Virus record (IMG/VR): IMGVR_UViG_3300042691_023046
Span: 19,729-83,728 of that record
Origin: a virus
DNA: 64,000 nucleotides
Strand: one strand, 5' to 3'
The position numbers and the translations under genes are program-made. Positions 2,823 to 21,139 of this stretch are shown here, piece by piece; position 1 is the stretch's first letter, and each line of letters starts with the position of its first letter. The notes under the pieces are model-generated. The model had not been told where the DNA came from, searched no databases, and was given only the letters and a program-made list of their open reading frames with translations.

Positions 2823-3315
2823 GGCGGATTATTACATTTTTAAATTTACCACCTATTTCTTTACCTATTAATATATCAATAGTTCTTACTAATCTTTTAT
2901 TTCCAAAATCAGCTATTGTATAATAACCGCTAAATTTACCACAATTAATTAATTGTACTTTTTCTCCACAATAAAATTCTGCTGCTAAATCTCTTGATAA
3001 TCCTATATATCTATGTTTATATGGATTTTTTAAATCAATTTTATTATTACAAGCTGTTCTATCTGGTGAACTATCACATTGATGTATTGTAGGATTATAA
3101 GTTGTAGCTGTTACTAAATAAGCTTCTTTTTCATTACTATCTATAATAGAATAATACATATCTTTATATAAACTGTCATTATATTTATTAATTTTAGTTT
3201 GTTTTACAATATGATTTTCTAATCTAAATATACCTATTATTGTACATATAAATATAAGAACATTTAAAGTTATGTATATTTTTCTATTACTTAGTACTTC
3301 TTCTTCTTCTACCAT
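2812..3315 (-). CDS. Membrane-anchored 3D-domain (MltA-like) cell-wall enzyme
   Basis: N-terminal TM helix; VTATTYNP..QCDSSPDRTA, IGLSRDL, IADFG, TIDIL fit the 3D domain pattern. Confidence 0.7.
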   Translation of the reverse strand: MVEEEEVLSNRKIYITLNVLIFICTIIGIFRLENHIVKQTKINKYNDSLYKDMYYSIIDSNEKEAYLVTATTYNPTIHQCDSSPDRTACNNKIDLKNPYKHRYIGLSRDLAAEFYCGEKVQLINCGKFSGYYTIADFGNKRLVRTIDILIGKEIGGKFKNVIIRHVN

Positions 3316-4070
3316 TTTATTATTTTATTATTTATTATTTCTTGATTTTGATTTATTATTTCTAATTCATCAAAAAAGTTTAATTCTTGCAATTGTTTTT
3401 GCAACTGTTTAAGTTTATAATCATTAGGTACAATATTTCTAATTTGTTTACATAAATCAGAACATTGCATTAATCTTTTAATTATAATATTATAATCAAA
3501 AGTAGGTTCTCCTATTCTTACTTCTAAAGTACCTAAATCATTAAAATACCACCAATTAGCAGTTTTACTATAATCAAAAGCAGTTTCCCATTCTTTTAAA
3601 GATTCAGTAATATAATCATAACCTTTTGGTTGTTGTCTATAACCACTTACATTTATTTCACTCCAAATATCAGTTAAATCTGTATGATAATGTGTGCTTG
3701 ATTCAGTATTATTAATAGACATATCTTTCATTAAATTGCAAATATCATATAAACAAACCATACCTTTTAATCCTGATGGTATTCTATATCTTTGTTCATA
3801 ACTATCAACTTTTACCTCCATTATATTAGGTATTTTTTTAAATGATTCTTCATCATAATTACTCTGTTGAGAACATTCAAATTCCATACCATGACTGTAA
3901 GGTAAATAACTATCAATAATATCTATAATATATTGATTTTTAATATTTAATAAAGGTGTTGGATTATTATAAATACAATCTTCCAACACCTTTAAATGAT
4001 TATCTGTACCCTTCTCCTCTACTACCTTGTTTAGATTGTGCTGGTTTAACAGGTTCTTGTTTCGCTTCAT
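3309..4070 (-). CDS. Putative amidoligase (COOH-NH2 ligase)-like protein
   Basis: GMEFEC, STHYHTD and GTLEVR motifs; start uncertain (ATG 4070 overlaps upstream gene by ~70 nt). Confidence 0.55.
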   Translation of the reverse strand: MKRNKNLLNQHNLNKVVEEKGTDNHLKVLEDCIYNNPTPLLNIKNQYIIDIIDSYLPYSHGMEFECSQQSNYDEESFKKIPNIMEVKVDSYEQRYRIPSGLKGMVCLYDICNLMKDMSINNTESSTHYHTDLTDIWSEINVSGYRQQPKGYDYITESLKEWETAFDYSKTANWWYFNDLGTLEVRIGEPTFDYNIIIKRLMQCSDLCKQIRNIVPNDYKLKQLQKQLQELNFFDELEIINQNQEIINNKIIKW

Positions 4071-4611
4071 CTATTTTAGGTTTTATTTCTTCTACAACTT
4101 TTTTAACTTCTTCTACTTTAACTTTAGGTTTTTCAGTAGCACTTTTTTCAATTAAAGCTTTTTTTTCAATTTTTATTTGAGTTTTGATATTTTCCTTAAC
4201 TTTAGCTTTAGCTACTACTTTAGGTATCATTAAAGTTTCAATTTGTTCTTCTAACTTTTTACCTGTAGGTGTAGAAACATTAGTTAATTTATTATATTTT
4301 TCAATAAGACTTAATGTTTCATTATAATGTTTTTCTGAATAATCAACAGTCATAACAACTTTATTCATAATAACATTAGTTTTACTACCTACTCTTTTAA
4401 TTTTAATAGCTATTGGTTTAACAATAGGTGTTTCAACTTTAGGAGCAACTGTTTTAGTTGCAACTTTTTTAACAGGAACTACTTTTTTAACTGGTGTTAC
4501 TTTTTTTGCAACTGTTTTTTTAGCTACAATTGGTTGAGCAGATTTAACTACTTTTTTAGCTGCTACCTTTTTAGGTGCTACTTTTTTTACTACTTTTTTA
4601 GGTGTTGCCAT
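4000..4611 (-). CDS. Lys/Val/Ala-rich histone H1-like protein
   Basis: N-terminal KKV(V/A)(P/A/K) repeats, highly basic. Confidence 0.55.
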   Translation of the reverse strand: MATPKKVVKKVAPKKVAAKKVVKSAQPIVAKKTVAKKVTPVKKVVPVKKVATKTVAPKVETPIVKPIAIKIKRVGSKTNVIMNKVVMTVDYSEKHYNETLSLIEKYNKLTNVSTPTGKKLEEQIETLMIPKVVAKAKVKENIKTQIKIEKKALIEKSATEKPKVKVEEVKKVVEEIKPKIDEAKQEPVKPAQSKQGSRGEGYR

Positions 4612-9716: not shown

Positions 9717-9822
9717 GAAAAGATTATAGGATTCGAACCTATGGACATAAATATATTGAATATCTAGTTTCATATTTATATCTATTCTAGTTTAACATTT
9801 AACCATTCTGCCAAATCTTTTC
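9717..9822 (-). ncRNA. tRNA-like element A (intact acceptor, D and T arms; no canonical anticodon arm)
   Basis: Minus: GAAAAGATT..AATCTTTTC acceptor, TGGCAGAATGGTTAAATGT D-arm, ATAGG-TTCGAAT-CCTAT T-arm; middle is an 11-bp hairpin GATATAAATAT/ATATTTATGTC. Confidence 0.75.
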
Positions 9823-12988: not shown

Positions 12989-12991
12989 AAT

Positions 12992-13272
12992 TTATTTAAA
13001 TTTTAAAAAGTTTAACATTCTTGTTAATTTACTTATTTTTTGTGTTTGTTTTCTTTTAGCTTTTTTACTTCTCCATTTAGCTAATTTTTTAAAATAACCT
13101 TTATCACTTTTAAATTGGCTTTTAGGATAATTTTCTCCTGATTTAATACCAGTTCTAAATTCTTTATCTTCTGTAATACTAATATCTGTTTGTATTACTT
13201 CTGTAAAAGCTTTACCTGTTTTTTGTTAATACCTAATCTATGGATAGTAACATTTGTTTGTTGGGTTGTCAT
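12992..13272 (-). pseudogene. Basic hypothetical gene split by -1 frameshift at A6 run
   Basis: MTTQQTNVTIHRLGINKK then, in -1 frame, TGKAFTEVIQTDIS...KWRSKKAKRKQTQKISKLTRMLNFLKFK*; junction at T6 13219-13224. Confidence 0.55.
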
Positions 13273-13312
13273 AATTGTTTTATTTAAATTGTTAATTACT
13301 AAAAGCTTGAGT

Positions 13313-13507
13313 TTAATAACCCAAGCTTTCTAAATATTTTTCATCACATGTTATTATAACACTATTTTTATAATATACTGTGTTTACTGGTGGTGCTTGT
13401 ATATCTTGTTTATTTATTAAACAAAAATGCAAGTATTCTTCTGCTGATAATTCAATTTGTTTTGTTTTTGTTACTTCTTTAGTAGAAGTTGTTGATATGT
13501 TTTTCAT
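13313..13507 (-). CDS. Hypothetical protein
   Basis: 64 aa ORF in co-oriented run. Confidence 0.6.
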   Translation of the reverse strand: MKNISTTSTKEVTKTKQIELSAEEYLHFCLINKQDIQAPPVNTVYYKNSVIITCDEKYLESLGY

Positions 13508-13597
13508 TTTATTTATTAGTTATTTAAATTTATTCATTGTGTATTGTATGAGAATATTTTATAGAAGTATTTACACTTGTCCACTTTGACATAGTAA

Positions 13598-14131
13598 TTA
13601 ATATATTACAGTTAAGTAATTAGTTTTATCTTGTGTGTTAAAATTTCCATTAACTAAAATATTACACATTATATTAGCTAATTTTTCAGTTGTATGTTTA
13701 TCATAAGGATGGTTAAATTCAATATCTTCATACTCTTTTTCTATTAATTTAAATGTACTAAGGTCAAATCCTTTTATATTATCAAAATTTCCATCACTTC
13801 TATAAAAACTATCAGAACATATACTATTACCTAATCTAATTTGACTAAGCATTAATCCTCCTCTGCCACATACATAACATTTTGGTAATTCGTTATTTAA
13901 TATTTCTTGAAATTCTTTAGAATCTTTTGTTTTAATAGTATTTAAAGAATTACTCCAATATTGACAATAACTACCATTTACAATATTATTTACAATTAAT
14001 TGTAAACAATCCCAAGCTATTTCTAATCTTTTTCCTTCATCGTTTAACCAATTAAAATATTCATTTCTTTCTTCAATATTTTGAATTGGTTGTAATACAC
14101 TTTTAAATGTAATATTTGGTATTATTTGCAT
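13598..14131 (-). CDS. Hypothetical protein (CYVC motif)
   Basis: 177 aa; CYVCGRGGLMLS, NILVNGNF. Confidence 0.7.
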   Translation of the reverse strand: MQIIPNITFKSVLQPIQNIEERNEYFNWLNDEGKRLEIAWDCLQLIVNNIVNGSYCQYWSNSLNTIKTKDSKEFQEILNNELPKCYVCGRGGLMLSQIRLGNSICSDSFYRSDGNFDNIKGFDLSTFKLIEKEYEDIEFNHPYDKHTTEKLANIMCNILVNGNFNTQDKTNYLTVIY

Positions 14132-14153
14132 TATGTTTATTTGTTTTAAAAAG

Positions 14154-14345
14154 TTAAAAATATTTTTTCATTTTTGATTGTAGTAGTTTTATAATAATAA
14201 CTAACATTATCCAAATACTCATGTATTGCATAAATGTCATTTTATATCCAATTTCATCTAAAGATAATATTATAATTATTCCTATTAAATAGTATAATAT
14301 ATCTAAAAATATATATATTGTGTTATATAATTTTTTATCTTTCAT
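14154..14345 (-). CDS. Small 2-TM membrane protein
   Basis: 63 aa hydrophobic. Confidence 0.5.
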   Translation of the reverse strand: MKDKKLYNTIYIFLDILYYLIGIIIILSLDEIGYKMTFMQYMSIWIMLVIIIKLLQSKMKKYF

Positions 14346-14354
14346 GTTGTTTAT

Positions 14355-14651
14355 TTAACAATTTGTACCACTTAGTATTTTACTAGCATCTTCTTTATTT
14401 AATTTATCAAAAGTAATAAATTCATTAAAATTGATAATTTGATATTTTGCAGCACTATTTGGATTTTCTAATATATAATCCCATTCAAGAGCAATACTTA
14501 AAATGTTATGATATTCTTTTGGTATTAGTTTTTTAAGTCCTTCTTTATTTTCATCTGTAACCTGTACAATTCTATAAATAGTTGTATCATTGTGTTTTGT
14601 AAATACACCATCAAAGATAGGTGTATGTGAAGTTTGTTTTATATTGTTCAT
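14355..14651 (-). CDS. Hypothetical protein
   Basis: 98 aa ORF. Confidence 0.65.
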   Translation of the reverse strand: MNNIKQTSHTPIFDGVFTKHNDTTIYRIVQVTDENKEGLKKLIPKEYHNILSIALEWDYILENPNSAAKYQIINFNEFITFDKLNKEDASKILSGTNC

Positions 14652-14675
14652 AATTTTTTTAGTTTAAGTATTAAA

Positions 14676-14784
14676 TAAACATTCTACATTATTATAATTA
14701 TTAAGTTAACACATTTCTAGTTGAACCTTATGCTAATAATTCATTCGCTTATAATAATTACCATTTAAGGTAGTAAAATGTTTA
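14676..14784. ncRNA. Intergenic stem-loop cassette with terminal inverted repeats
   Basis: taaacatt...aatgttta closing stem; nested attattataa/ttataataat, ttatta/taataa, gttaac/gttgaac and tacc/ggta stems. Confidence 0.45.
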
Positions 14785-14824
14785 ATATTTTTAAAGATTT
14801 TGTTCAATAAATTAGGCTTTGTTG

Positions 14825-15052
14825 TTATAATTGTTTTTGTATTTTATCAAAATAATCTTTTAATTCTTTATGTGATTCAAAATCATAATTTAAATCATTA
14901 GGATTATCATTTTTATGTGTAAAATATTGTTTTTCACTATTACTATAAGTAATTTCAATACTATCATTAACATAAGGACAACTTTTAGGTGCTGATATTA
15001 AACATATATCTAATATATATTTAATATTATGATTTAATTTAGGTTCATTCAT
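14825..15052 (-). CDS. Hypothetical protein
   Basis: 75 aa ORF. Confidence 0.55.
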   Translation of the reverse strand: MNEPKLNHNIKYILDICLISAPKSCPYVNDSIEITYSNSEKQYFTHKNDNPNDLNYDFESHKELKDYFDKIQKQL

Positions 15053-15054
15053 AA

Positions 15055-15765
15055 TTATAACTTTTGTTCAATAAATTCATCAATAAAAGCAACTCTATCA
15101 TTATCACAAGGTTTACAATAGATTGTTGCTGATTTACAAAACTTAGTATTATAACTGTTTTCAAATTTTCTTAATAATTCTGTTATTTCTAAACTATTCC
15201 AACTATCTTTAATTAAGTTAATATTAATAGTATTGTCAGGATTTATTAATAATTTATTATCACAAGCAGGACAATCATCATTAAAAGCTGTACATAAAGC
15301 GTTTAATTCTTTACATTTAGTTTCATACTCTACCATTACTTTAGTAATTATATTGCCTTTATTGTATTCAGATATAAATATTTCAATAAATGATGTTGGA
15401 ATTTGTTGTACCCATACATTTTCTCCAGACTGTTCTTTTTTATTTACTAGTGAACTATCTGTTGTAGCTATTATTTTTTTACAAAATTCAATTAGGTGAT
15501 TTATTTCTTTATTTGCATTGAATATAAAATTAGAACTAATTCTTATACATTGATAAATAATTTTAGAATAACTTTCTCTTATATCATAAAACCAATCACC
15601 TTCTTCTATTTTATCATTTGAAGTAATATGTAGTTCATAATATTCATTTTTAAATGGATTATATAATTCTTCATCAATTATAGTTAAATATTCTTTATCT
15701 GAATTTAGTTTATTATTTGATTTAATAGCAATTATTGCTATATCATGTTGTTTAAAGTTTTTCAT
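15055..15765 (-). CDS. Hypothetical phage protein
   Basis: 236 aa; LHITSNDKIEEGDW...CKKIIATTDSSL...QIPTSFIE. Confidence 0.75.
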   Translation of the reverse strand: MKNFKQHDIAIIAIKSNNKLNSDKEYLTIIDEELYNPFKNEYYELHITSNDKIEEGDWFYDIRESYSKIIYQCIRISSNFIFNANKEINHLIEFCKKIIATTDSSLVNKKEQSGENVWVQQIPTSFIEIFISEYNKGNIITKVMVEYETKCKELNALCTAFNDDCPACDNKLLINPDNTININLIKDSWNSLEITELLRKFENSYNTKFCKSATIYCKPCDNDRVAFIDEFIEQKL

Positions 15766-15766
15766 A

Positions 15767-15988
15767 TTATTTACTTAGTTTAAGGGTATCTCCAATATTC
15801 CACTTATTAACGGAATCATATATTTCTAAATTTTGCGTACTAGCTCCATTTATAGCAAAGAAATGTATTTCATCAGTATTTCTACTTATTTTTTTTATGC
15901 TAGTTACAACCATTACTTCATTTCTATTGTCAATAGGAAAACAACTACTAGTTATTCCAATTAATAATATTATTATTAGCTTTTTCAT
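15767..15988 (-). CDS. Small lipoprotein
   Basis: MKKLIIILLIGITSSC signal peptide with lipobox-like Cys. Confidence 0.6.
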   Translation of the reverse strand: MKKLIIILLIGITSSCFPIDNRNEVMVVTSIKKISRNTDEIHFFAINGASTQNLEIYDSVNKWNIGDTLKLSK

Positions 15989-16025
15989 TTTATTATTGTT
16001 TAATTGTTAATTTAATTGTTTAATG

Positions 16026-16355
16026 TTAATACAAATCTTCTGATGTTAAACCAATGATATTTGTAGCATAACCTTTATTTGGTCCAATTATTTGATTGGC
16101 TTCAAATGCTATTTTATATGCTTCTTGTCTATTTACAAATCTATTAGTATTTGTAATAAAACCTTGAATACATTTGTTCATTAATTTAACTATATCTTCT
16201 CTATTAATATCTTTCATCATTAATTTAAATGTATATATACAATTATGATGTCTTCTACCACCAATAACAAAACCTGATGTTATATTTATAGGTTGATGAA
16301 TATGTATTATATCATCATTATAATGATTAGCTGCACAAATTATATATTCTTTCAT
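16026..16355 (-). CDS. Conserved phage protein of unknown function
   Basis: IICAAN...GRRHHNC...QGFITNTNRFVNRQEA...LTSEDLY pattern. Confidence 0.75.
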   Translation of the reverse strand: MKEYIICAANHYNDDIIHIHQPINITSGFVIGGRRHHNCIYTFKLMMKDINREDIVKLMNKCIQGFITNTNRFVNRQEAYKIAFEANQIIGPNKGYATNIIGLTSEDLY

Positions 16356-16379
16356 ATTTTTAATTAATTTAATTGTTTG

Positions 16380-16465
16380 TGGAGAAAACAGGATTGGAAC
16401 CTGTACCTAGTAACCAGTCTTAACTTGGTGGACATACCATTACGCCATTTATAACCCATTTCTCC
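16380..16465 (-). ncRNA. tRNA-like element B (degenerate, possible UAA/Leu anticodon)
   Basis: Minus: GGAGAAA/TTTCTCC-A acceptor, ACAGG-TTCCAAT-CCTGT T-arm, GGCGTAATGGTATGTC D-like arm after ~11-nt insertion, ACCAAG-TTAAGA-CTGGT imperfect anticodon arm. Confidence 0.65.
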
Positions 16466-17997
16466 ATTTAATATTACAGGTAATTACTCCTGTTGCACAA
16501 TGTTGCTACATTCGACATGTATTTATATAAGTTGTATAAATACTATTTACTTCTTCAAGCTCTTGTAGTTCCAACTACGATAATATATTACTATATTAAA
16601 GGCATTACATAGGCTCTTATCCCTATTAAGATATTTATAATGCTGCCACCATATCTTTTACTTAAATTATTACTAAATGTTTTTACCATTACAATTCCTA
16701 TCAGTATATCTACCATCGTATATTGCACTTATTAGTATTTTCAAAGATATTTTATATTTCTCTACCATTTAACAGGTATGAATTATTAAACAATAATAAA
16801 TAAGATTTACTATTTCGGCATGATAAAACCATTACGTTATATCTTTCAAATGTCCTAATTATTATTTCAAATAATTACTCATTTATTATTGTTTTTTTTT
16901 TACTACTATTATGTTTTTTGGTAATCATTACATTAGGTCTTTCTCCTAATCTCCCCAAGTCAATTGTAGCTTCTGACTAATATCTTAAAAATGTAGGTTG
17001 TTAATTGCTATTTTTAGAAATTATATTTCACCATATTATTATGGACTAACAACACTACATTTTATATTTTAACATTAAGGTTTTATTTAATTAGACTTTA
17101 TACTATACCTTTTTATGTTAAAATATTTACCTTCTGCACTCAAACTATAAGAAGTAACTTATTATATTATTAAGTTTTACTTTCAAACTTATAGTTTGCT
17201 CATTCTTAGGAATTAATTAACTTAGAGGACATTGCAATCTGTTTAGTCTTAGGTTAATTAAGTAGTTTCACATCTTATACATTTATCTTTAATGTATGCT
17301 ATAAATAAGCTAAATAAGAAGTCTTTATATCTACATAAGTTATGGTGCATTAATATTAAATCCTTTTACACAAATTGTAATACTTACTTGATATTACTTT
17401 TATTGTAATTCAATAGCTCATGCTGCCAGACTTATAGAGATATTACAATTGTGTATTAGGAATATTTTATTTAAATTTAATCTTACAGTAGTTTGTACAC
17501 AGCTATAGTAAGCATAATACCTAGTTCTTGAATCTAAGTTTAACTTTTTGTTTTTGTTTACTGTTAAATGATGTACACCATTTACTTAATCCACAAGATA
17601 TATTGACTAGTTTTTATCTTGGTTTCTCATAATCTTACTAACATATGATTAAGTTTATAATGTTAGCAGCAAGATTTTAAATTTTTTTTATTCATAAGTT
17701 GCTTCTGTTTCTATACAACAGATAAGATTTAATAAAAAACAGTATGATATTACTAAGTTGTGCTATATCATCAAGTAAGTTTTATTTATACTTAGATTAC
17801 GTTATACTCCTGTTTTTTGAGAATTAAACTCTACAAAGTTGCACTTTGTCATGCGGTATTATTTCAACAGCAAGTCCTGCGAATTGGACAGAGTTTAATA
17901 TTTTAAATTAACTGTACAAATTGTAATAGCTGTACAGTAATTCGGGTGCATTAATTTCCCTATCATAATCCGTCACTATTACAACTGTACAGTTAAT
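16466..17997. ncRNA. Gene-free array of structured stem-loop cassettes (candidate ncRNA cluster)
   Basis: No ORF >=60 aa over ~1.5 kb; at least 10 closely spaced modules, each closed by its own inverted repeat (see findings). Confidence 0.6.
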
Positions 17998-18009
17998 ATA
18001 ATTAATGTT

Positions 18010-18429
18010 TTAACTAGTTCTAAGTATTTTATTAAATTGTTCAATTGATATAGTTTTTTCCCAATCAATTCCTCCATGTTTAATAAATACTTCTTCTAAT
18101 ACTGTAATTGGTATATTACCAACTGTTCCTGTAGTATCATTTGGATTATCTCCATATTCAGACATTAATGGTTCATGTTCAGATGTAAATCCAAATTCTA
18201 CTGATTCATAAGTATGTCCTAATGTTCTATATCCATTTTCTGTACCACAATAATTACCATTATGTATTTGTAATGATACATTAAATCCATCTTTAGCATA
18301 TATTCTAGGACAATAAAAGTATTGATTATCATAGGACATTTGTTTTCCCATAAAATCTTTTTTACCTGATGTTATTGATGGTTGAAAAATAGACATTATT
18401 ATTAGTCTAAAAAATAGTGTTAAATTCAT
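18010..18429 (-). CDS. Conserved hypothetical phage protein
   Basis: DGFNVSLQ...YC...VEFGF...KHGGI pattern; real start probably the second Met (MSIFQP). Confidence 0.75.
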   Translation of the reverse strand: MNLTLFFRLIIMSIFQPSITSGKKDFMGKQMSYDNQYFYCPRIYAKDGFNVSLQIHNGNYCGTENGYRTLGHTYESVEFGFTSEHEPLMSEYGDNPNDTTGTVGNIPITVLEEVFIKHGGIDWEKTISIEQFNKILRTS

Positions 18430-18472
18430 AATTTTATAATTGATTGTTAAATTGGTTAGTTAATAAGTTTAA

Positions 18473-18504
18473 TACAACTGCATCAAATTAATGATACAGT
18501 TGTA
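18473..18504 (-). terminator. Intergenic hairpin (terminator or processing site)
   Basis: TACAACTG(T)ATCA / TGAT(G)CAGTTGTA with G-U pair on minus strand. Confidence 0.5.
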
Positions 18505-18510
18505 ATGTTG

Positions 18511-18708
18511 TTATTTTTCAATTGGTTTAACATTAGTAACATTATTACCATGTAACAAACTATTTAAATTAGCATCTAATTCTTCAAGTTGTTTAGTAGT
18601 TATTAATTTTACTTGATGTGCATGATTTAATAATGTAGTTAATTTACCATAAGCTTTCATTGTTTTATGGTCTAATGCTACTTGAATTGCTTCTTGATTA
18701 TGTAACAT
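18511..18708 (-). CDS. Hypothetical protein
   Basis: 65 aa ORF. Confidence 0.6.
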   Translation of the reverse strand: MLHNQEAIQVALDHKTMKAYGKLTTLLNHAHQVKLITTKQLEELDANLNSLLHGNNVTNVKPIEK

Positions 18709-18830
18709 AATTGTATTTATTAGTGTTGTTATTTATGATTAATTGTTTAATTTATTGTTTACAAATGTGAAGTTAAATGATGTGAATATCATGAAGATAT
18801 GTGAATGTGTTATAATAAATGTGCAATTTT

Positions 18831-19079
18831 TATTTAGTGTAATGAGAGTGTAGATTAATATTGTTGGGTTGTTAACATTTAACCAACCTCCATAACATTT
18901 AACTATCACATCAAATAATTATTTATCATATAACTATTATATAATAGCTATACATTTCCATCACATACCTGTTAATTTAATCAACATACATAATTACAAT
19001 TTAAGCTCCTTAAACTAATATTCTCCTACACTTTTAAATTATTATTATGTTATTAACTACACTTCATTCACACTAAATA
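18831..19079. repeat. ~30-bp imperfect inverted repeat enclosing ~190 bp
   Basis: tatttagtgtaatgagagtgtagattaata (18831) vs tattaactacacttcattcacactaaata (19051). Confidence 0.7.
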
Positions 19080-19195
19080 TTATATGTTTACAATTGTAAA
19101 GTTATATAATTTATAACTTGTTGTTAATCACCCATTTCTCTCTTTAGAAGCAAATAGATATACAATTATAGATACACTATTAATACACACAATAA

Positions 19196-19224
19196 AATAA
19201 GGAGAGTTTAACACTCCCCTTATT
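19196..19224 (-). terminator. Intrinsic terminator
   Basis: Minus AATAAGGGGAGT-GTTAA-ACTCTCCTTATT-TT just after stop of 19226-19465. Confidence 0.75.
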
Positions 19225-19225
19225 A

Positions 19226-19465
19226 TTATTTGATTGCTGCTAACAATTCTTCCATTGTAGAATATTCTACTTCGGCTTCAATAACTTTAGCAAAATTAAC
19301 GTATTCTAATCCTAGCTTAGTGAATACTCCTGATTTAATAACTTTATCAGTTTTTAATTGCTTAACAAATTCTGCTTCTGTTCCATTGTAAAACATTACT
19401 GTATTATCCTCAATGAAATCAACTCTAATTCCTTTTTCTGCGTTACTAATTTTAATTTTTTTCAT
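19226..19465 (-). CDS. Hypothetical protein, first gene of leftward arm
   Basis: 79 aa ORF with terminator. Confidence 0.65.
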   Translation of the reverse strand: MKKIKISNAEKGIRVDFIEDNTVMFYNGTEAEFVKQLKTDKVIKSGVFTKLGLEYVNFAKVIEAEVEYSTMEELLAAIK

Positions 19466-19915
19466 GGTACGGTGTATTTAATTGTTGTAGTTTAGTAAGG
19501 GTCGGGTTGTTGATGTGGTAGCCCCTTCTCTACATTTAAAACAAATTTTCAATTTTTACAAAATTTTAAAAAATAATTTTTTTATCAACATAGGGGTCTA
19601 TCATTACTTTTTTCTAATTTTATTAATTTCTTAATTTTTAAATTTTATAAAAAAAATTTTTATTGACCCTACTCATTATCACACTATATAGGTGTAAATT
19701 TATTTTCAATTTGGATTCCTTTAGAAGCCTATTCATAGGCAGTTAAAATACCCATGTTCACAGGAAACACTATATAAGTTATTGATTGTTAGTTGTTAAA
19801 GAAGTTAAATGATTGTATAATAATAAAATCTATAATTTGACAGTTTATTCAATTGATATTCAATTACTTAAAACATATTTTTATAAACAGTATTGTTTTA
19901 TTGAACAATGTTCAT
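19466..19915. other. Strand-switch region with clustered A/T tracts; candidate genome terminus, packaging site or origin
   Basis: Gene orientation flips here; repeated AAATTTT/AATTTTT tracts 19535-19715; GC patches gggtcggg, ggggtc/gaccc. Confidence 0.45.
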
Positions 19916-19922
19916 ATATTTG
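19915..19922 (+). promoter_or_regulatory. Bacteroidota -7 promoter box for rightward arm
   Basis: TATATTTG 5 nt before ATG 19928 (leaderless-like). Confidence 0.6.
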
Positions 19923-19927
19923 TACCC

Positions 19928-20224
19928 ATGCAAGACATAGATATAATTTTACACTTTCAAGAAACATTAAATTTTTTAACTCCTCATAATATACTAAAAA
20001 TAGATATTATATCAATAGATATAAAAGTTAAAAATAATATAGGTACAATAGATATATTAGCACATAAAAATGTAGATGAAAATTTAGAAGAAGTTGGTAA
20101 ATTTAATTATAAAGGTAAATATTCAAGTGATAAAACACAACTAATGAGATATTTAACATCTTGGTGTGAAAAATATAAAGTAGAATATTATATTAATTTA
20201 TCAGATAGTAGAGAATATAAATAA
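19928..20224 (+). CDS. Hypothetical protein
   Basis: ORF 19853-20224; ATG 19928 (MQDIDIIL) preferred over TTG because it follows the promoter box. Confidence 0.55.
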   Translation: MQDIDIILHFQETLNFLTPHNILKIDIISIDIKVKNNIGTIDILAHKNVDENLEEVGKFNYKGKYSSDKTQLMRYLTSWCEKYKVEYYINLSDSREYK

Positions 20225-20225
20225 A

Positions 20226-20390
20226 ATGACAGCACAAAACATAATAGATTATTTAAATAAATTAACTTCATTTGATAAAGAACAGGAGTTAAGTATTTTT
20301 GTTTCTAATGAAAATGGAACATTTAATTATAAAAAGATAAAAGATTTATTTATATCAGCAGAAAACATATTAGTAATTACAAATGAGTAA
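20226..20390 (+). CDS. Small hypothetical protein (54 aa)
   Basis: Manual translation MTAQNIIDYLNKLTSFDKEQELSIFVSNENG...ITNE*, fills gap and overlaps repL start. Confidence 0.55.
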   Translation: MTAQNIIDYLNKLTSFDKEQELSIFVSNENGTFNYKKIKDLFISAENILVITNE

Positions 20391-20919
20391 ACATATACCA
20401 GATTCTCTTAAAGGAGTTAAATCACCATTTATAGATAATTTAGTTATACCTATATTTACTAGATACAACACAGAAGATGTATCTAATCCTTCTAAATCTG
20501 TAATAAAAAATGATATAATAGTAGCAACAGGAGAAACACATAAAATATCAAGAAGTTATACCTTAGAAAAAGATAGAAAAGTTGATTTATATTATGAAAA
20601 TAATGGAGAAGATTTAAAACCTTATTATACAGCTTTATCAAAAGAAGGTAGAATGTTATTAGATTATATTTTATTTTATTGTTTAAGAGAAAATAAGTTG
20701 TTGTGTTATATAGATACAAAAGATTTTATGGATAAATATATGATAAAATCTAGGACAACTCTTTGGAATAGTAAAAAGAATTTAATAAATTTGACTTTTA
20801 TTACAGCTACTTCTTGTCAGAATTGGTATTGGATAAACCCTAAGTTTATGTTTAAAGGTTATAGAAGTAAAGTAATAGAACTAAAAGATAATTTAAAATA
20901 CACAACTAAAGAAGATTAG
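20383..20919 (+). CDS. repL: RepL-like winged-helix protein
   Basis: SRTTLWNSKKNL helix and WYWINPKFMFKG C-terminal motif. Confidence 0.7.
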   Translation: MSKHIPDSLKGVKSPFIDNLVIPIFTRYNTEDVSNPSKSVIKNDIIVATGETHKISRSYTLEKDRKVDLYYENNGEDLKPYYTALSKEGRMLLDYILFYCLRENKLLCYIDTKDFMDKYMIKSRTTLWNSKKNLINLTFITATSCQNWYWINPKFMFKGYRSKVIELKDNLKYTTKED

Positions 20920-20920
20920 T

Positions 20921-21139
20921 ATGTCAATTCAAAAAGAAACAAATAGTTTTAATGGTAGTAGCTTTTCTATAAGTCATATTATAGAAATGTTAGAATTTTC
21001 ATCAAAAACTACAATAACTAAACAATATAATAAATGTAAAAATGAATTAAATTCTAAAATAAAAGGAACAATTTTATTTTATGGTACACCAGGAAAAATA
21101 AACAATAATAATTTTGAAGAATTATGGAAGAAACTATAA
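20921..21139 (+). CDS. Mini-protein resembling a terminase ATPase fragment
   Basis: KGTILFYGTPGKINNNNFEELW vs own TerL SGTIIWFGTGGGKDNNWAGFKEIF. Confidence 0.55.
   Translation: MSIQKETNSFNGSSFSISHIIEMLEFSSKTTITKQYNKCKNELNSKIKGTILFYGTPGKINNNNFEELWKKL

What the first reader, a model, noticed from the sequence alone, without database searches (positions are those of the whole stretch)
16466..17997. ~1.5 kb gene-free array of self-closed stem-loop cassettes: candidate polycistronic phage small-RNA system
Seen: in an otherwise densely coding genome this stretch has no long ORF. It is tiled by modules each closed by its own inverted repeat: 16651-16750 (atatcttt/aaagatat), 16788-16894 (14 bp perfect), 16988-17063, 17064-17126 (12 bp perfect), 17141-17198 (11 bp perfect), 17213-17261, 17367-17455, 17631-17676, 17734-17818, 17823-17899 (10 bp perfect) and 17907-17997. 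Several have internal multi-way junctions, and some minus-strand loops are GNRA (GTAA ~16588, GAAA ~16865). The modules share architecture but not sequence, so this is not a CRISPR array or tandem repeat. The array ends in a tRNA-like element. Inference: an early transcript processed (RNase III/RNase P) into many structured RNAs acting as decoys or sponges, or one large ncRNA like the tRNA-linked phage GOLLD/ROOL classes. Caveat: several mismatches are G-T on the plus strand, so the functional strand (or an ssDNA role) is unresolved.
Basis: partly seen in the sequence, partly recalled or inferred. Interest (0 to 1): 0.82.

Follow-up and report, generated by a model that had tools for sequence, protein, structure and literature searches.

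The report
Abundant structured noncoding RNA, crAss-like phage
A 1.65-kb gene-free, hairpin-packed stretch of an uncultured freshwater crAss-like phage is real, and its left half builds up as RNA far above the neighbouring genes, like the unexplained long non-coding RNAs of the model crAss-like phage phi14:2.

Summary
Observation confirmed. Window 16356-18009 has no credible ORF. It is the densest cluster of long-range perfect inverted repeats in the 83.7-kb genome: 12 observed against 2.1 +/- 1.5 in shuffles, reached by 0 of 300.

New here: in two metatranscriptome runs from different studies, contigs 100% identical to the window cover only 16472-17342. They form two pieces (about 312 and 527 nt, depth 15-21 in run X7). 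The other roughly 7 kb laid is almost silent. The RNA edge lies 7 nt from a tRNA-like element (16379-16465, minus strand). The right 0.67 kb, which holds the strongest hairpins, was not seen as RNA.

No Rfam family matches. No homologue was found in 26 related loci, in IMG/VR or in GTDB genomes, so covariation could not be tested. The RNA strand is unresolved.

The phage is a distant crAss-like phage. A homologue of phi14:2 gene g004 lies about 0.7 kb away. In phi14:2, g004 borders a 1.7-kb ORF-free region that is published as two abundant, early, persistent lncRNAs of unknown function.

Verdict: a new member of that poorly understood kind, here with environmental RNA support. The scan has noted similar stretches in other crAss-like phages, none with RNA data.

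One RNA contig closes on itself, so the 312-nt piece may be circular or a head-to-tail repeat. This is unexplained.

The parts
16379..16465 (-). tRNA-like element, 87 nt. It has a perfect 7-bp acceptor stem, a 5-bp T-arm with a TTCCAAT loop, a weak anticodon stem and an extra arm. It is a candidate RNase P/RNase Z processing signal.
   Evidence: ARAGORN finds it only at a relaxed threshold and finds nothing at default. Rfam tRNA scores 21 bits against a gathering score of 29, over 16380-16446. RNA contigs do not cover it.
16472..16783 (.). RNA piece A, about 312 nt, present in metatranscriptomes. The contig closes on itself across a 5-nt TATTA microhomology.
   Evidence: a 311-nt X7 contig at depth 15.5 aligns to 16472-16774 with 0 differences and carries 8 loose letters. 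X9 has a contig at 16506-16761; those 8 letters occur on the + strand of the window only at 16776 and 26850. Fold z is -2.2 (+) and 0.0 (-).
16784..16815 (.). A/T-rich spacer missing from the RNA contigs of both runs. It contains the left arm of the 16788-16894 repeat.
   Evidence: X7 contigs end at 16774 and restart at 16816. X9 contigs end at 16761 and restart at 16822. Contigs only, so this is a weak hint of processing.
16816..17342 (.). RNA piece B, about 527 nt, strongly structured. It holds four complete cassettes: 16988-17063, 17064-17126, 17141-17198 and 17213-17261.
   Evidence: one 527-nt X7 contig at depth 20.8 with 0 differences. X9 contigs cover 16822-17122 and 17134-17328. Both runs stop at 17328-17342, while a DNA contig of X5 runs on (16952-18014). 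Fold z is -5.4 (+) and -2.4 (-), with 0 of 40 shuffles as low.
16788..16894 (.). 107-nt module closed by a 14-bp perfect stem (17 nt at 94%), followed on the + strand by a T-run.
17343..18009 (.). Right half, rich in inverted repeats and not seen in RNA contigs. I infer that it holds the control region of the ncRNA and the terminator of the upstream gene. Modules: 17361-17461, 17575-17663, 17734-17818, 17823-17899 (a four-way junction) and 17903-18003.
   Evidence: Fold z is -5.0 on both strands. RNA depth is 0 in X7 and X9 for bins 17539-19140. Repeats are listed.
17361..17461 (.). Module A of a paralogous pair. Its arms carry ACAAATTGTAATA / TATTACAATTGT, and each arm holds a mini-palindrome. 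It is a possible operator or promoter element about 25-40 nt from the RNA edge.
   Evidence: The 13-mer TATTACAATTTGT occurs exactly twice in 64 kb, both on the minus strand, at 17370-17382 and 17916-17928. Alignment. MFE is -27.6 (+) and -23.5 (-).
17903..18003 (.). Module B of the pair, directly after the stop of the 139-aa gene. It is the strongest hairpin of the stretch.
   Evidence: MFE is -25.4 (+) and -32.3 (-). Window z reaches -5.8..
15055..15765 (-). Context: a 236-aa gene homologous to phi14:2 g004, the gene that borders the phi14:2 lncRNA region.
   Evidence: tblastn gives 34% identity over 167 aa, E 7e-11, and 33.5%. It matches phrog_15656.
18010..18429 (-). Context: the upstream 139-aa gene of unknown function. 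It is widespread in phages but never in the same neighbourhood.
   Evidence: 5 viral and 21 metagenome loci at 45-66% identity. No other gene of those loci matches this neighbourhood.

Best explanation
The stretch is a non-coding RNA locus of a distant, uncultured freshwater crAss-like phage. It is the positional counterpart of the early, persistent long non-coding RNAs reported for Cellulophaga phage phi14:2.

Shown:
- There is no coding capacity.
- Long-range perfect inverted repeats are in extreme excess.
- The left 0.87 kb (16472-17342) accumulates as RNA at least 8-fold above the flanking genes in two independent metatranscriptomes.
- That RNA appears as two pieces of about 312 and 527 nt. 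A 32-40 nt spacer between them is absent from the RNA.

Inferred:
- The RNA is made leftward, in the same direction as the early/replication arm, from a start near 17350-17370. That start lies just downstream of palindromic module A. I put the minus strand at about 55-60%.
- The adjoining tRNA-like element is cut by RNase P. This would set the 3' end of piece A a few nucleotides from 16466.
- The spacer is removed by a host endonuclease.
- The stem-closed domains make the products compact and exonuclease-resistant, so they outlast the mRNAs.
- The right 0.67 kb acts at the DNA or nascent-RNA level. It would serve as terminator of the 139-aa gene and as operator/promoter region.

Function is not shown. 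My best guess, at about 35%, is a trans-acting protein-binding scaffold or decoy. It would engage a host RNA-binding or RNA-degrading factor during takeover, rather than act as an antisense regulator, since no gene lies opposite it.
For: - ORF-free under three genetic codes, and the micro-ORFs have poor codon scores.
- Inverted repeats: 12 against 2.09 +/- 1.45, reached by 0 of 300 shuffles. This is the densest window of the whole genome.
- Fold z is -5.4/-2.4 for 16816-17342 and -5.0/-5.0 for 17343-18009. Four coding controls give -2.2 to +0.65.
- RNA runs: 7 of the 19 runs that hold words of 15800-18600 are RNA libraries, with shares of 0.09-0.28. I laid two of them.
- In X7, contigs cover 16472-16774 (depth 15.5) and 16816-17342 (depth 20.8) with 0 differences. 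In X9, contigs cover 16506-16761, 16822-17122 and 17134-17328 (depth 3-5).
- In the rest of 13000-21000, X7 has one perfect 151-nt piece (19288-19438, depth 2) and otherwise only pieces of 27-40 nt with 3 mismatches. X9 has one such short piece. DNA runs X5 and X6 cover all 30 bins. DNA carry-over therefore does not explain the pattern.
- No cellular copy: two exact 23-27-mers from the RNA are absent from 185,579 species genomes.
- The tRNA-like element lies 7 nt from the RNA edge.
- crAss-like kinship: the major capsid protein's best reference hits are crAss-like phages at about 28% identity over 97-98% of its length.
- The g004 homologue lies 0.7 kb away.
- phi14:2 has a 1.7-kb ORF-free region right after g004. 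The preprint says this region is transcribed above most genes, early and persistently, with function unknown (10.1101/2020.03.07.982082, passages read).
- The phi14:2 region is also enriched in inverted repeats: 17 against 5.6 +/- 2.2 at 8 bp, reached by 0 of 300 shuffles.
Against: - No relative carries the stretch, so there is no conservation or covariation test. It is absent from 26 loci around homologues of the neighbouring gene, from five whole related virus records, from INPHARED, and from IMG/VR exact-word scans.
- There is no sequence similarity to the phi14:2 region: top blastn score 32.6 bits against 37.9 +/- 4.2 for shuffled queries.
- In phi14:2 the ORF-free region lies downstream of g004. 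Here it lies upstream, with two small genes between. g004 homologues in three other phage types have no such region.
- The closing stems are pure Watson-Crick with no G.U interruptions. The only two candidates lie in overlapping alternative helices. This fits a DNA-level palindrome or young elements as well as RNA.
- Contigs give neither strand nor ends nor level. Only 2 of 7 RNA runs and only 8 kb were laid. Capsid mRNA was not compared.
- Piece A is not more foldable than a coding control, and on the minus strand its z is 0.0. Fold z favours the plus strand, against my strand inference. The same measure fails to pick the known strand in phi14:2, even for its tmRNA.
- The left arm of the 16788-16894 stem is missing from the RNA while the right arm is present. 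That cassette is therefore not an intact unit in the mature RNA.
- Promoter-like matches are not above chance: 48 against 51 +/- 6.6.
- Nothing here bears on function.
Confidence: 0.6

Rival explanations
1. A DNA-level element. In this reading the perfect inverted repeats act in DNA, as a replication origin or primosome-loading region, as recombination or cassette-exchange hairpins, or as hairpin promoters for the injected virion RNA polymerase as in phage N4. The RNA would be a by-product such as an origin or primer transcript.
For: - The closing stems are perfect Watson-Crick and strand-symmetric, with no G.U.
- Fold z is equal on both strands in the right half.
- The right half, with the strongest repeats, is not seen as RNA.
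- Two modules share palindromic arms that look like protein-binding half-sites.
- The stretch lies about 2-3 kb from the divergent gene switch and the cumulative GC-skew minimum near 19.7-19.9 kb.
- The phi14:2 preprint found no common motif upstream of early transcripts, and the virion polymerase transcribes denatured DNA (passages read).
Against: - RNA from the left half accumulates 8-fold or more above neighbouring genes in two studies. That is unusual for a mere by-product.
- Loops of 36-79 nt are too long for easy cruciform extrusion (established knowledge, not tested here).
- There are no ORFs between hairpins, so this is not a gene-cassette array.
- There is no shared core motif across cassettes.
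- GC skew and gene orientation are confounded, so the skew minimum does not locate an origin.
Confidence: 0.15
2. No dedicated function. In this reading the RNA pieces are nuclease-resistant leftovers of a long untranslated part of the leftward operon. They survive only because the hairpins block exonucleases, while the DNA is a drifting spacer that gathers quasi-palindromes.
For: - No relative keeps the stretch.
- Stems without G.U suggest recent, template-switch-type origin rather than long purifying selection.
- Piece A is no more foldable than a coding control.
- The contig breaks cut through one cassette.
Against: - A phage of 83.7 kb with tightly packed genes keeps 1.65 kb of it.
- The inverted-repeat density is the genome-wide extreme, 5 sd above the mean.
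- The analogous ORF-free, highly transcribed region in phi14:2 argues that such loci are maintained in this phage group.
Confidence: 0.15
3. A decayed or highly divergent tRNA/tmRNA array. In this reading the cassettes are remnants or mimics of tRNAs, or parts of a tmRNA-like RNA whose tRNA-like domain is 16379-16465.
For: - The tRNA-like element adjoins the stretch.
- A second non-canonical tRNA lies at 9718-9820.
- Several cassettes are tRNA-sized (58-107 nt), and 17823-17899 folds into a four-way junction.
- In phi14:2 the analogous region holds a tmRNA.
- ARAGORN at an 80% threshold proposes a permuted tmRNA at c[16379,16946].
Against: - Rfam at E up to 10 finds no further tRNA and no tmRNA in 16000-18400.
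- A tmRNA search of the whole genome finds nothing at E up to 10.
- A tRNA search finds only the two known elements.
- The acceptor stem has A3-U70, not the G3.U70 needed for alanine charging (read).
- The closing stems are 9-14 bp, not 7.
- RNA contigs exclude the tRNA-like part.
- The 80%-threshold ARAGORN call is not trustworthy.
Confidence: 0.07

Closest known systems
Early long non-coding RNAs of Cellulophaga phage phi14:2 (g004-g005 and g005-g006 intergenic regions; Drobysheva et al., bioRxiv 10.1101/2020.03.07.982082; passages read)
   Same: - Both are in crAss-like phages.
- Both are a 1.65-1.7 kb ORF-free block near the start of the early/replication arm.
- Both lie within 1 kb of a g004-family gene.
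- RNA is more abundant than from most or neighbouring protein genes.
- Inverted repeats are in excess of shuffles.
- Function is unknown.
   Different: - No sequence similarity.
- The order relative to g004 is inverted.
- phi14:2 carries a tmRNA in its block, and this phage has none.
- This stretch is much more strongly self-complementary: z about -5 against -0.4 to -2.6.
- Timing and strand are known for phi14:2 only.
GOLLD (RF01998) and ROOL (RF03087), large ornate ncRNAs often carried by phages and often next to tRNAs (family accessions and biology recalled)
   Same: Both are large (0.5-0.9 kb), multi-domain, phage-borne and tRNA-adjacent RNAs of unknown function.
   Different: No match to either model at E up to 10. 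No conserved family could be assembled. Here the RNA appears as two pieces.
tRNA-punctuated transcript processing: mitochondrial tRNA punctuation, plant t-elements, MALAT1-mascRNA (recalled from established knowledge)
   Same: A tRNA-like fold with an intact acceptor/T-arm and a degenerate anticodon arm sits exactly at the edge of an accumulating RNA. This is the arrangement in which RNase P cleavage creates the 3' end of the upstream RNA.
   Different: Cleavage was not observed. The RNA strand is unknown. The contig edge is 7 nt from the predicted site.
RNase III processing stalks of the phage T7 early transcript and of rRNA operons (recalled)
   Same: Long-range stems close RNA domains in a polycistronic early transcript.
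   Different: The stems here are 9-14 bp, shorter than the roughly two helical turns that RNase III prefers. The one contig break cuts only one arm of a stem.
Integron attC arrays and CALINs, hairpin sites conserved in structure but not in sequence (recalled)
   Same: Tandem units of 50-110 bp are each bounded by their own inverted repeat, with no shared sequence.
   Different: There are no genes between the hairpins, no shared core triplets were found, no integrase lies nearby, and the left half is an abundant RNA.

Membership tests
phi14:2-type crAss-like phage lncRNA locus | Carried by a crAss-like (Crassvirales-type) phage | tested here: met
   The major capsid protein's best reference hits are crAss-like phages at about 28% identity over 97-98% of its length. 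Terminase, portal and capsid PHROGs match. A g004 homologue is present. The kinship is distant: IMG/VR capsid relatives reach 36% or less.
phi14:2-type crAss-like phage lncRNA locus | A long ORF-free block (over 1 kb) in the early/replication arm beside a g004-family gene | tested here: met
   16356-18009 is ORF-free. The g004 homologue lies at 15055-15765. phi14:2 is ORF-free over 2905-4601 after g004. The order relative to g004 differs.
phi14:2-type crAss-like phage lncRNA locus | RNA more abundant than most protein-coding genes | tested here: inconclusive
   Met for the 8 kb laid: depth 15-21 against 0-2 in X7, and the same pattern in X9. These are contigs, only neighbouring genes were compared, and the right half is silent.
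phi14:2-type crAss-like phage lncRNA locus | Transcribed in the same direction as neighbouring early genes; early onset and persistence | not testable with these tools
   Contigs carry no strand and no time course.
phi14:2-type crAss-like phage lncRNA locus | Sequence or structure homology to the phi14:2 RNAs | tested here: not met
   The top blastn score is 32.6 bits against 37.9 +/- 4.2 for shuffled queries; 58 of 60 shuffles score at least as high.
GOLLD / ROOL and all other Rfam families | Match to the family covariance model | tested here: not met
   Nothing at gathering score in the stretch. At E up to 10 there are six weak hits: four miRNA-family matches, one ssNA-helicase sRNA match (16.5 bits, E 9.5) and a 21-bit tRNA hit.
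tRNA (element 16379-16465) | Rfam tRNA score at or above 29 bits, or an ARAGORN default call | tested here: not met
   21 bits. ARAGORN at default finds 0 genes. It is found only at an 85-90% threshold.
tRNA (element 16379-16465) | A 7-bp acceptor stem stacked on a 5-bp T-arm with a T-loop (the minimal RNase P substrate) | tested here: met
   The ARAGORN drawing shows 7 Watson-Crick acceptor pairs and a T-arm ACAGG/CCTGT with loop TTCCAAT.
tmRNA | Match to RF00023 or an ARAGORN tmRNA call; G3.U70 in the acceptor stem | tested here: not met
   No hit in the whole genome at E up to 10. The acceptor stem has A3-U70. Only an untrustworthy call appears at an 80% threshold.
CRISPR array / tandem repeat | Repeated units of shared sequence at regular spacing | tested here: not met
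   No multi-copy direct-repeat family, only chance-like two-copy matches.
Integron-like attC cassette array | Genes between hairpin sites; a shared core at the hairpin bases | tested here: not met
   No ORFs between the hairpins. The arms share no core, except in the two modules 17361-17461 and 17903-18003.

The most novel reading that the evidence does not exclude
The roughly 312-nt piece A (16472-16783) is a covalently closed, or circularly permuted, RNA made by a double-stranded-DNA phage. It would be excised from the early transcript next to a tRNA-like element and ligated at a TATTA microhomology. It would belong to a class of stable crAss-like phage RNAs that persist through infection.

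The basis is one 311-nt metatranscriptome contig. Its 8 unaligned leading letters equal window 16776-16783, which lies two bases beyond the contig's other end. The contig is therefore a 312-nt cycle that lacks only position 16775.
Probability: 0.2. Interest if true: 0.8.

Novelty: new member of a known kind. Interest (0 to 1): 0.55.

Why it matters
crAss-like phages are among the most abundant viruses in guts and are common in waters. The only transcriptome of a cultured member, phi14:2, showed long non-coding RNAs that outnumber most mRNAs and persist through infection, and nobody knows what they do.

This window shows that an unrelated-in-sequence, far more hairpin-rich block at the equivalent place in a very distant freshwater relative is also a dominant RNA in nature. 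It adds three things:
- approximate RNA boundaries;
- a tRNA-like element at one boundary;
- a silent, palindrome-rich control half.

This suggests that an abundant structured early RNA is a general but fast-evolving feature of the group. It also gives concrete molecules (about 312 and 527 nt) to test. If the 312-nt piece is circular, it would be an unusual RNA form for a DNA phage.

A by-product is that one of the two unexplained phi14:2 RNAs coincides with a tmRNA gene.

Tried and rejected
Alternative genetic codes. No frame opens specifically.

Micro-ORF string. Rejected on codon scores.

Known RNA families. None apart from a weak tRNA hit. The miRNA-family hits only reflect hairpins.

tmRNA. 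Rejected. The ARAGORN 'tmRNAp' calls at an 80% threshold are not credible.

Split gene or intron. The 109-aa ORF matches only positions 79-174 of the 253 positions of phrog_839 (the six-frame genome search, reads through stops to 77-220). No other piece of that family lies in the genome, so the stretch is not an intron of it.

Homologues:
- INPHARED blastn found none.
- Five related virus records gave only chance 20-46-nt matches.
- 26 loci around homologues of the 139-aa gene gave no similar DNA above noise and no ORF-free block. Some of these loci are the same contig in two collections.
- Homologues of the 109-aa and 236-aa genes gave one distant locus each.
- Exact-word scans of IMG/VR and of GTDB genomes found none.
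- Loci in hand were scanned for comparable repeat-dense blocks. The maxima were 8-10 per 1.5 kb, in partly coding DNA. One apparent ORF-free hit, L009, proved to be an open-ended 715-aa ORF.

Natural variation. DNA runs X5 and X6 gave only identical pieces, so there were no substitutions to test pairing with.

Strand:
- G.U counts in closing stems and in MFE structures do not discriminate.
- Whole-segment z favours the plus strand, but the same measure fails on phi14:2, where the strand is known.
- Sigma-70-like promoter matches are at chance.
- The 13-mer is not a general promoter: 25 matches with up to 2 mismatches against 22 expected.

Accessory enzymes. Pfam scans of 30 proteins of the leftward arm and the switch region found no RNA ligase, RtcB or RNase III. 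No reverse transcriptase is in the genome. PDB sequence searches of the two flanking proteins gave nothing.

Parts without RNA cover (16379-16471, 16784-16815, 17343-18009 and the flanking genes). Absence from contigs is weak, and I use it only as a contrast to the covered part.

Joints listed for X5 and X6 have sides of 21-24 letters. I treat them as noise from other organisms.

Literature. Searches for crAss/Crassvirales with lncRNA, ncRNA or tmRNA found only the phi14:2 preprint passage. 'Crassvirales' plus 'long non-coding RNA' gave 0 papers in the held library. PMC8375218 has no relevant passage. PMC9226505 mentions crAss only for RT-bearing phages. Supplementary tables of the phi14:2 preprint (transcript abundances, primer-extension sites) were not seen and may bear on the comparison.

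Full report
WHAT THE WINDOW IS

The window is bases 19729-83728 of an 83,728-bp virus record with direct terminal repeats. Its G+C is about 22-24%. Genes run leftward from about 19.5 kb of the window and rightward from about 19.85 kb.

The capsid, portal and terminase genes match PHROGs. The major capsid protein's best hits among reference phages are crAss-like phages, at about 28% identity over 97-98% of its length. That search matched 93 records, all under 60% identity. In IMG/VR the best capsid relatives reach only 33-36% (128 relatives, best 80 listed). The phage is therefore a distant, poorly sampled crAss-like phage.

THE OBSERVATION

Coding capacity. 16356-18009 has no ORF above 45 aa under table 11. 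TAG=Q and TGA=W open nothing convincing. TAA=Q opens 34 overlapping frames in every phase, which is not specific. Fifteen micro-ORFs of 25 aa or more score -0.91 to +0.36 in codon log-odds. The 38 long training ORFs have a median of 0.81.

Inverted repeats. The stretch holds 12 such repeats, against 2.09 +/- 1.45 in 300 dinucleotide shuffles, none of which reaches 12. The five densest 1.5-kb windows of the whole genome all lie here: maximum 14, against a mean of 3.1 and sd of 2.1.

Folding z-scores:
- 16816-17342: -5.4 / -2.4.
- 17343-18009: -5.0 / -5.0.
- 16472-16783: only -2.2 / 0.0.
- Four coding controls: -2.2 to +0.65.
- The 120-nt sliding profile is patchy rather than uniformly low.

The structure signal is carried mainly by the long closing stems.

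KNOWN FAMILIES

Rfam at gathering score finds nothing in the stretch. At E up to 10 it finds only hairpin-type noise and a 21-bit tRNA match at 16380-16446 on the minus strand.

ARAGORN at default finds no tRNA in the window. At a relaxed threshold it draws an 87-nt tRNA-like element at 16379-16465 on the minus strand. That element has a perfect 7-bp acceptor stem, a good T-arm and a poor anticodon stem. The genome has one other non-canonical tRNA, at 9718-9820 with a 42-nt insert. It has no tmRNA and no reverse transcriptase.

RELATIVES

The upstream 139-aa gene has homologues at 45-66% identity in 5 IMG/VR and 21 metagenome loci. Some of these are the same contig in two collections. None shares any other gene of this neighbourhood. 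None has an ORF-free block after the gene, and none has similar DNA.

INPHARED, IMG/VR word scans and GTDB genomes gave nothing. DNA runs that hold the stretch are identical in sequence. Conservation and covariation therefore could not be tested. This is the main weakness of any RNA-structure claim here.

RNA EVIDENCE

Nineteen public runs hold words of 15800-18600, and seven of them are metatranscriptomes. I laid two RNA runs from different studies and two DNA runs on 13000-21000.

- RNA run X7 has a 311-nt contig on 16472-16774 (depth 15.5) and a 527-nt contig on 16816-17342 (depth 20.8), both without a single difference.
- RNA run X9 has contigs on 16506-16761, 16822-17122 and 17134-17328 (depth 3-5).
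- Across the other roughly 7 kb, X7 has one perfect 151-nt piece (19288-19438, depth 2). Otherwise it has only 27-40-nt pieces with three mismatches. X9 has one such short piece.
- Both DNA runs cover all 30 bins, and a DNA contig of X5 runs straight through 16952-18014.

DNA carry-over would give even cover, so the left 0.87 kb is present as RNA well above its neighbours.

Both RNA runs lack about 16775-16815 and stop at 17328-17342. The left edge is 7 nt from the 5' end of the tRNA-like element, which is itself not covered. Contigs give no strand, no true ends and no level. The silent parts are only a contrast, not proof of absence.

AN UNEXPLAINED DETAIL

The 311-nt X7 contig starts with 8 letters that do not align. 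Those 8 letters occur on the plus strand of the window at only two places, and one of them is 16776-16783, two bases past the contig's other end. The contig thus reads 16776-16783, then 16472-16774. That is a 312-nt cycle lacking only position 16775, joined at a 5-nt TATTA shared by both sides.

In a k-mer graph this is what a closed path with a variant or a break at 16775 would give. It could mean a circular RNA, a head-to-tail repeat in RNA or in the DNA of that population, or reverse-transcriptase template switching between abundant molecules. It rests on one contig in one run. DNA cover of that bin was too low to check.

THE PUBLISHED COUNTERPART

A full-text search led to the phi14:2 preprint. 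[quoted passage not shown] They say these RNAs are present at the first time point and do not decline. [quoted passage not shown]

In NC_021806 the block 2905-4601 after g004 is now annotated without genes. The window's 236-aa gene at 15055-15765 is a g004 homologue: 34% identity over 167 aa, E 7e-11. It lies 0.7 kb from the stretch. The phi14:2 block is also enriched in inverted repeats: 17 against 5.6 +/- 2.2 at 8 bp, reached by 0 of 300 shuffles. At 9 bp the figures are 6 against 1.5, reached by 3 of 300.

Against a simple equivalence:
- The two blocks share no sequence.
- The order relative to g004 is reversed.
- g004 homologues in Leptolyngbya phage Lbo-JY46 and Cellulophaga phages phi4:1 and phi17:2 show no such block. 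I looked at Lbo-JY46 and phi4:1.
- phi14:2's block folds less strongly.

SIDE RESULT

phi14:2 4031-4500 is called a tmRNA by ARAGORN at default. The call has G3.U70 and a canonical T-arm. Rfam RF00023 scores it 46 bits against a gathering score of 47, E 1.6e-16, over the full model length. This region lies inside the g005-g006 interval. It is not annotated in the record stretch I saw and is not named in the passages I read.

STRAND AND MECHANISM

For a leftward (minus) RNA:
- All neighbours are leftward.
- The phi14:2 RNAs run with their neighbours.
- The tRNA-like element is on the minus strand at the RNA's edge, the arrangement in which RNase P makes the 3' end of the upstream RNA.
- Base skews match those of the leftward genes.

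For a plus RNA: fold z is lower on the plus strand for both pieces. That measure does not pick the known strand in phi14:2. G.U counts are uninformative. I put the minus strand at 55-60%.

The right half is not seen as RNA. It carries two paralogous modules whose arms share an exact 13-mer found nowhere else in 64 kb. One sits right after the stop of the 139-aa gene. The other sits 25-40 nt from the RNA edge. I read them as terminator and control elements, which is inference only.

The closing stems have no G.U at all. This fits DNA-level palindromes or young stems as well as RNA stems, so a DNA role for part of the stretch remains a live rival.

VERDICT

The feature is real and non-coding, and its left half is an abundant RNA. 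It is best filed as a new, sequence-unrelated member of the crAss-like phage lncRNA loci first seen in phi14:2.

The scan has noted similar repeat-dense ORF-free stretches in other crAss-like phages. Those notes are unchecked, and none had RNA data.

The 'large ncRNA next to a tRNA-like element' reading is supported. Membership in GOLLD or ROOL is not. Function is unknown. The scaffold/decoy mechanism I commit to is a guess at about 35%.

Noticed in passing
L118 (NC_021806, Cellulophaga phage phi14:2) 4031-4500: A 470-nt tmRNA gene with G3.U70 and a canonical T-arm lies inside the g005-g006 interval that the preprint reports as an abundant lncRNA of unknown function. ARAGORN calls it at default, and Rfam scores it 46 bits against a gathering score of 47. 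It is not annotated in the record stretch I saw.
   Followed up: partly
window 9718-9820 (-): A tRNA match of 31.2 bits, above the gathering score, with a 42-nt insertion in the anticodon-arm region. ARAGORN misses it at default. It lies in a 640-bp ORF-free gap.
   Followed up: partly
window 18756-18781 and 19085-19110 (+); also 19801-19813: A 26-nt motif occurs twice on the plus strand, against 0 expected in 100 shuffles. Part of it (GAAGTTAAATGAT) recurs just upstream of the first rightward gene. These are candidate rightward promoters in a second ORF-poor zone, 18430-19850.
   Followed up: partly
window 16713 (run X7): Another RNA contig matches up to 16713 and then runs on for 255 or more letters that occur nowhere in this genome. 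It may come from a relative with a mosaic breakpoint inside piece A, or from a chimera.
   Followed up: partly
window 18010-18429 (-): The 139-aa gene of unknown function has homologues at 45-66% identity in phages from gut, freshwater and other metagenomes, always in a different gene neighbourhood. This suggests a mobile accessory gene.
   Followed up: partly
window 16026-16355 (-): The 109-aa ORF matches only the middle of phrog_839 (positions 79-174 of 253). No other piece of the family is in the genome, so it is a shortened form or a domain-only relative.
   Followed up: partly
window 13261-13500: The ORF-free gap 12989-13597 has strongly negative fold z-scores, reaching -4.2 on the minus strand and -3.9 on the plus strand. 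It may hold another structured element.
   Followed up: no
window 16448-16470 and 19124-19146: A 23-nt direct repeat at 83% identity covers the 5' acceptor side of the tRNA-like element and recurs in the second ORF-poor zone. No tRNA-like fold was called there.
   Followed up: no
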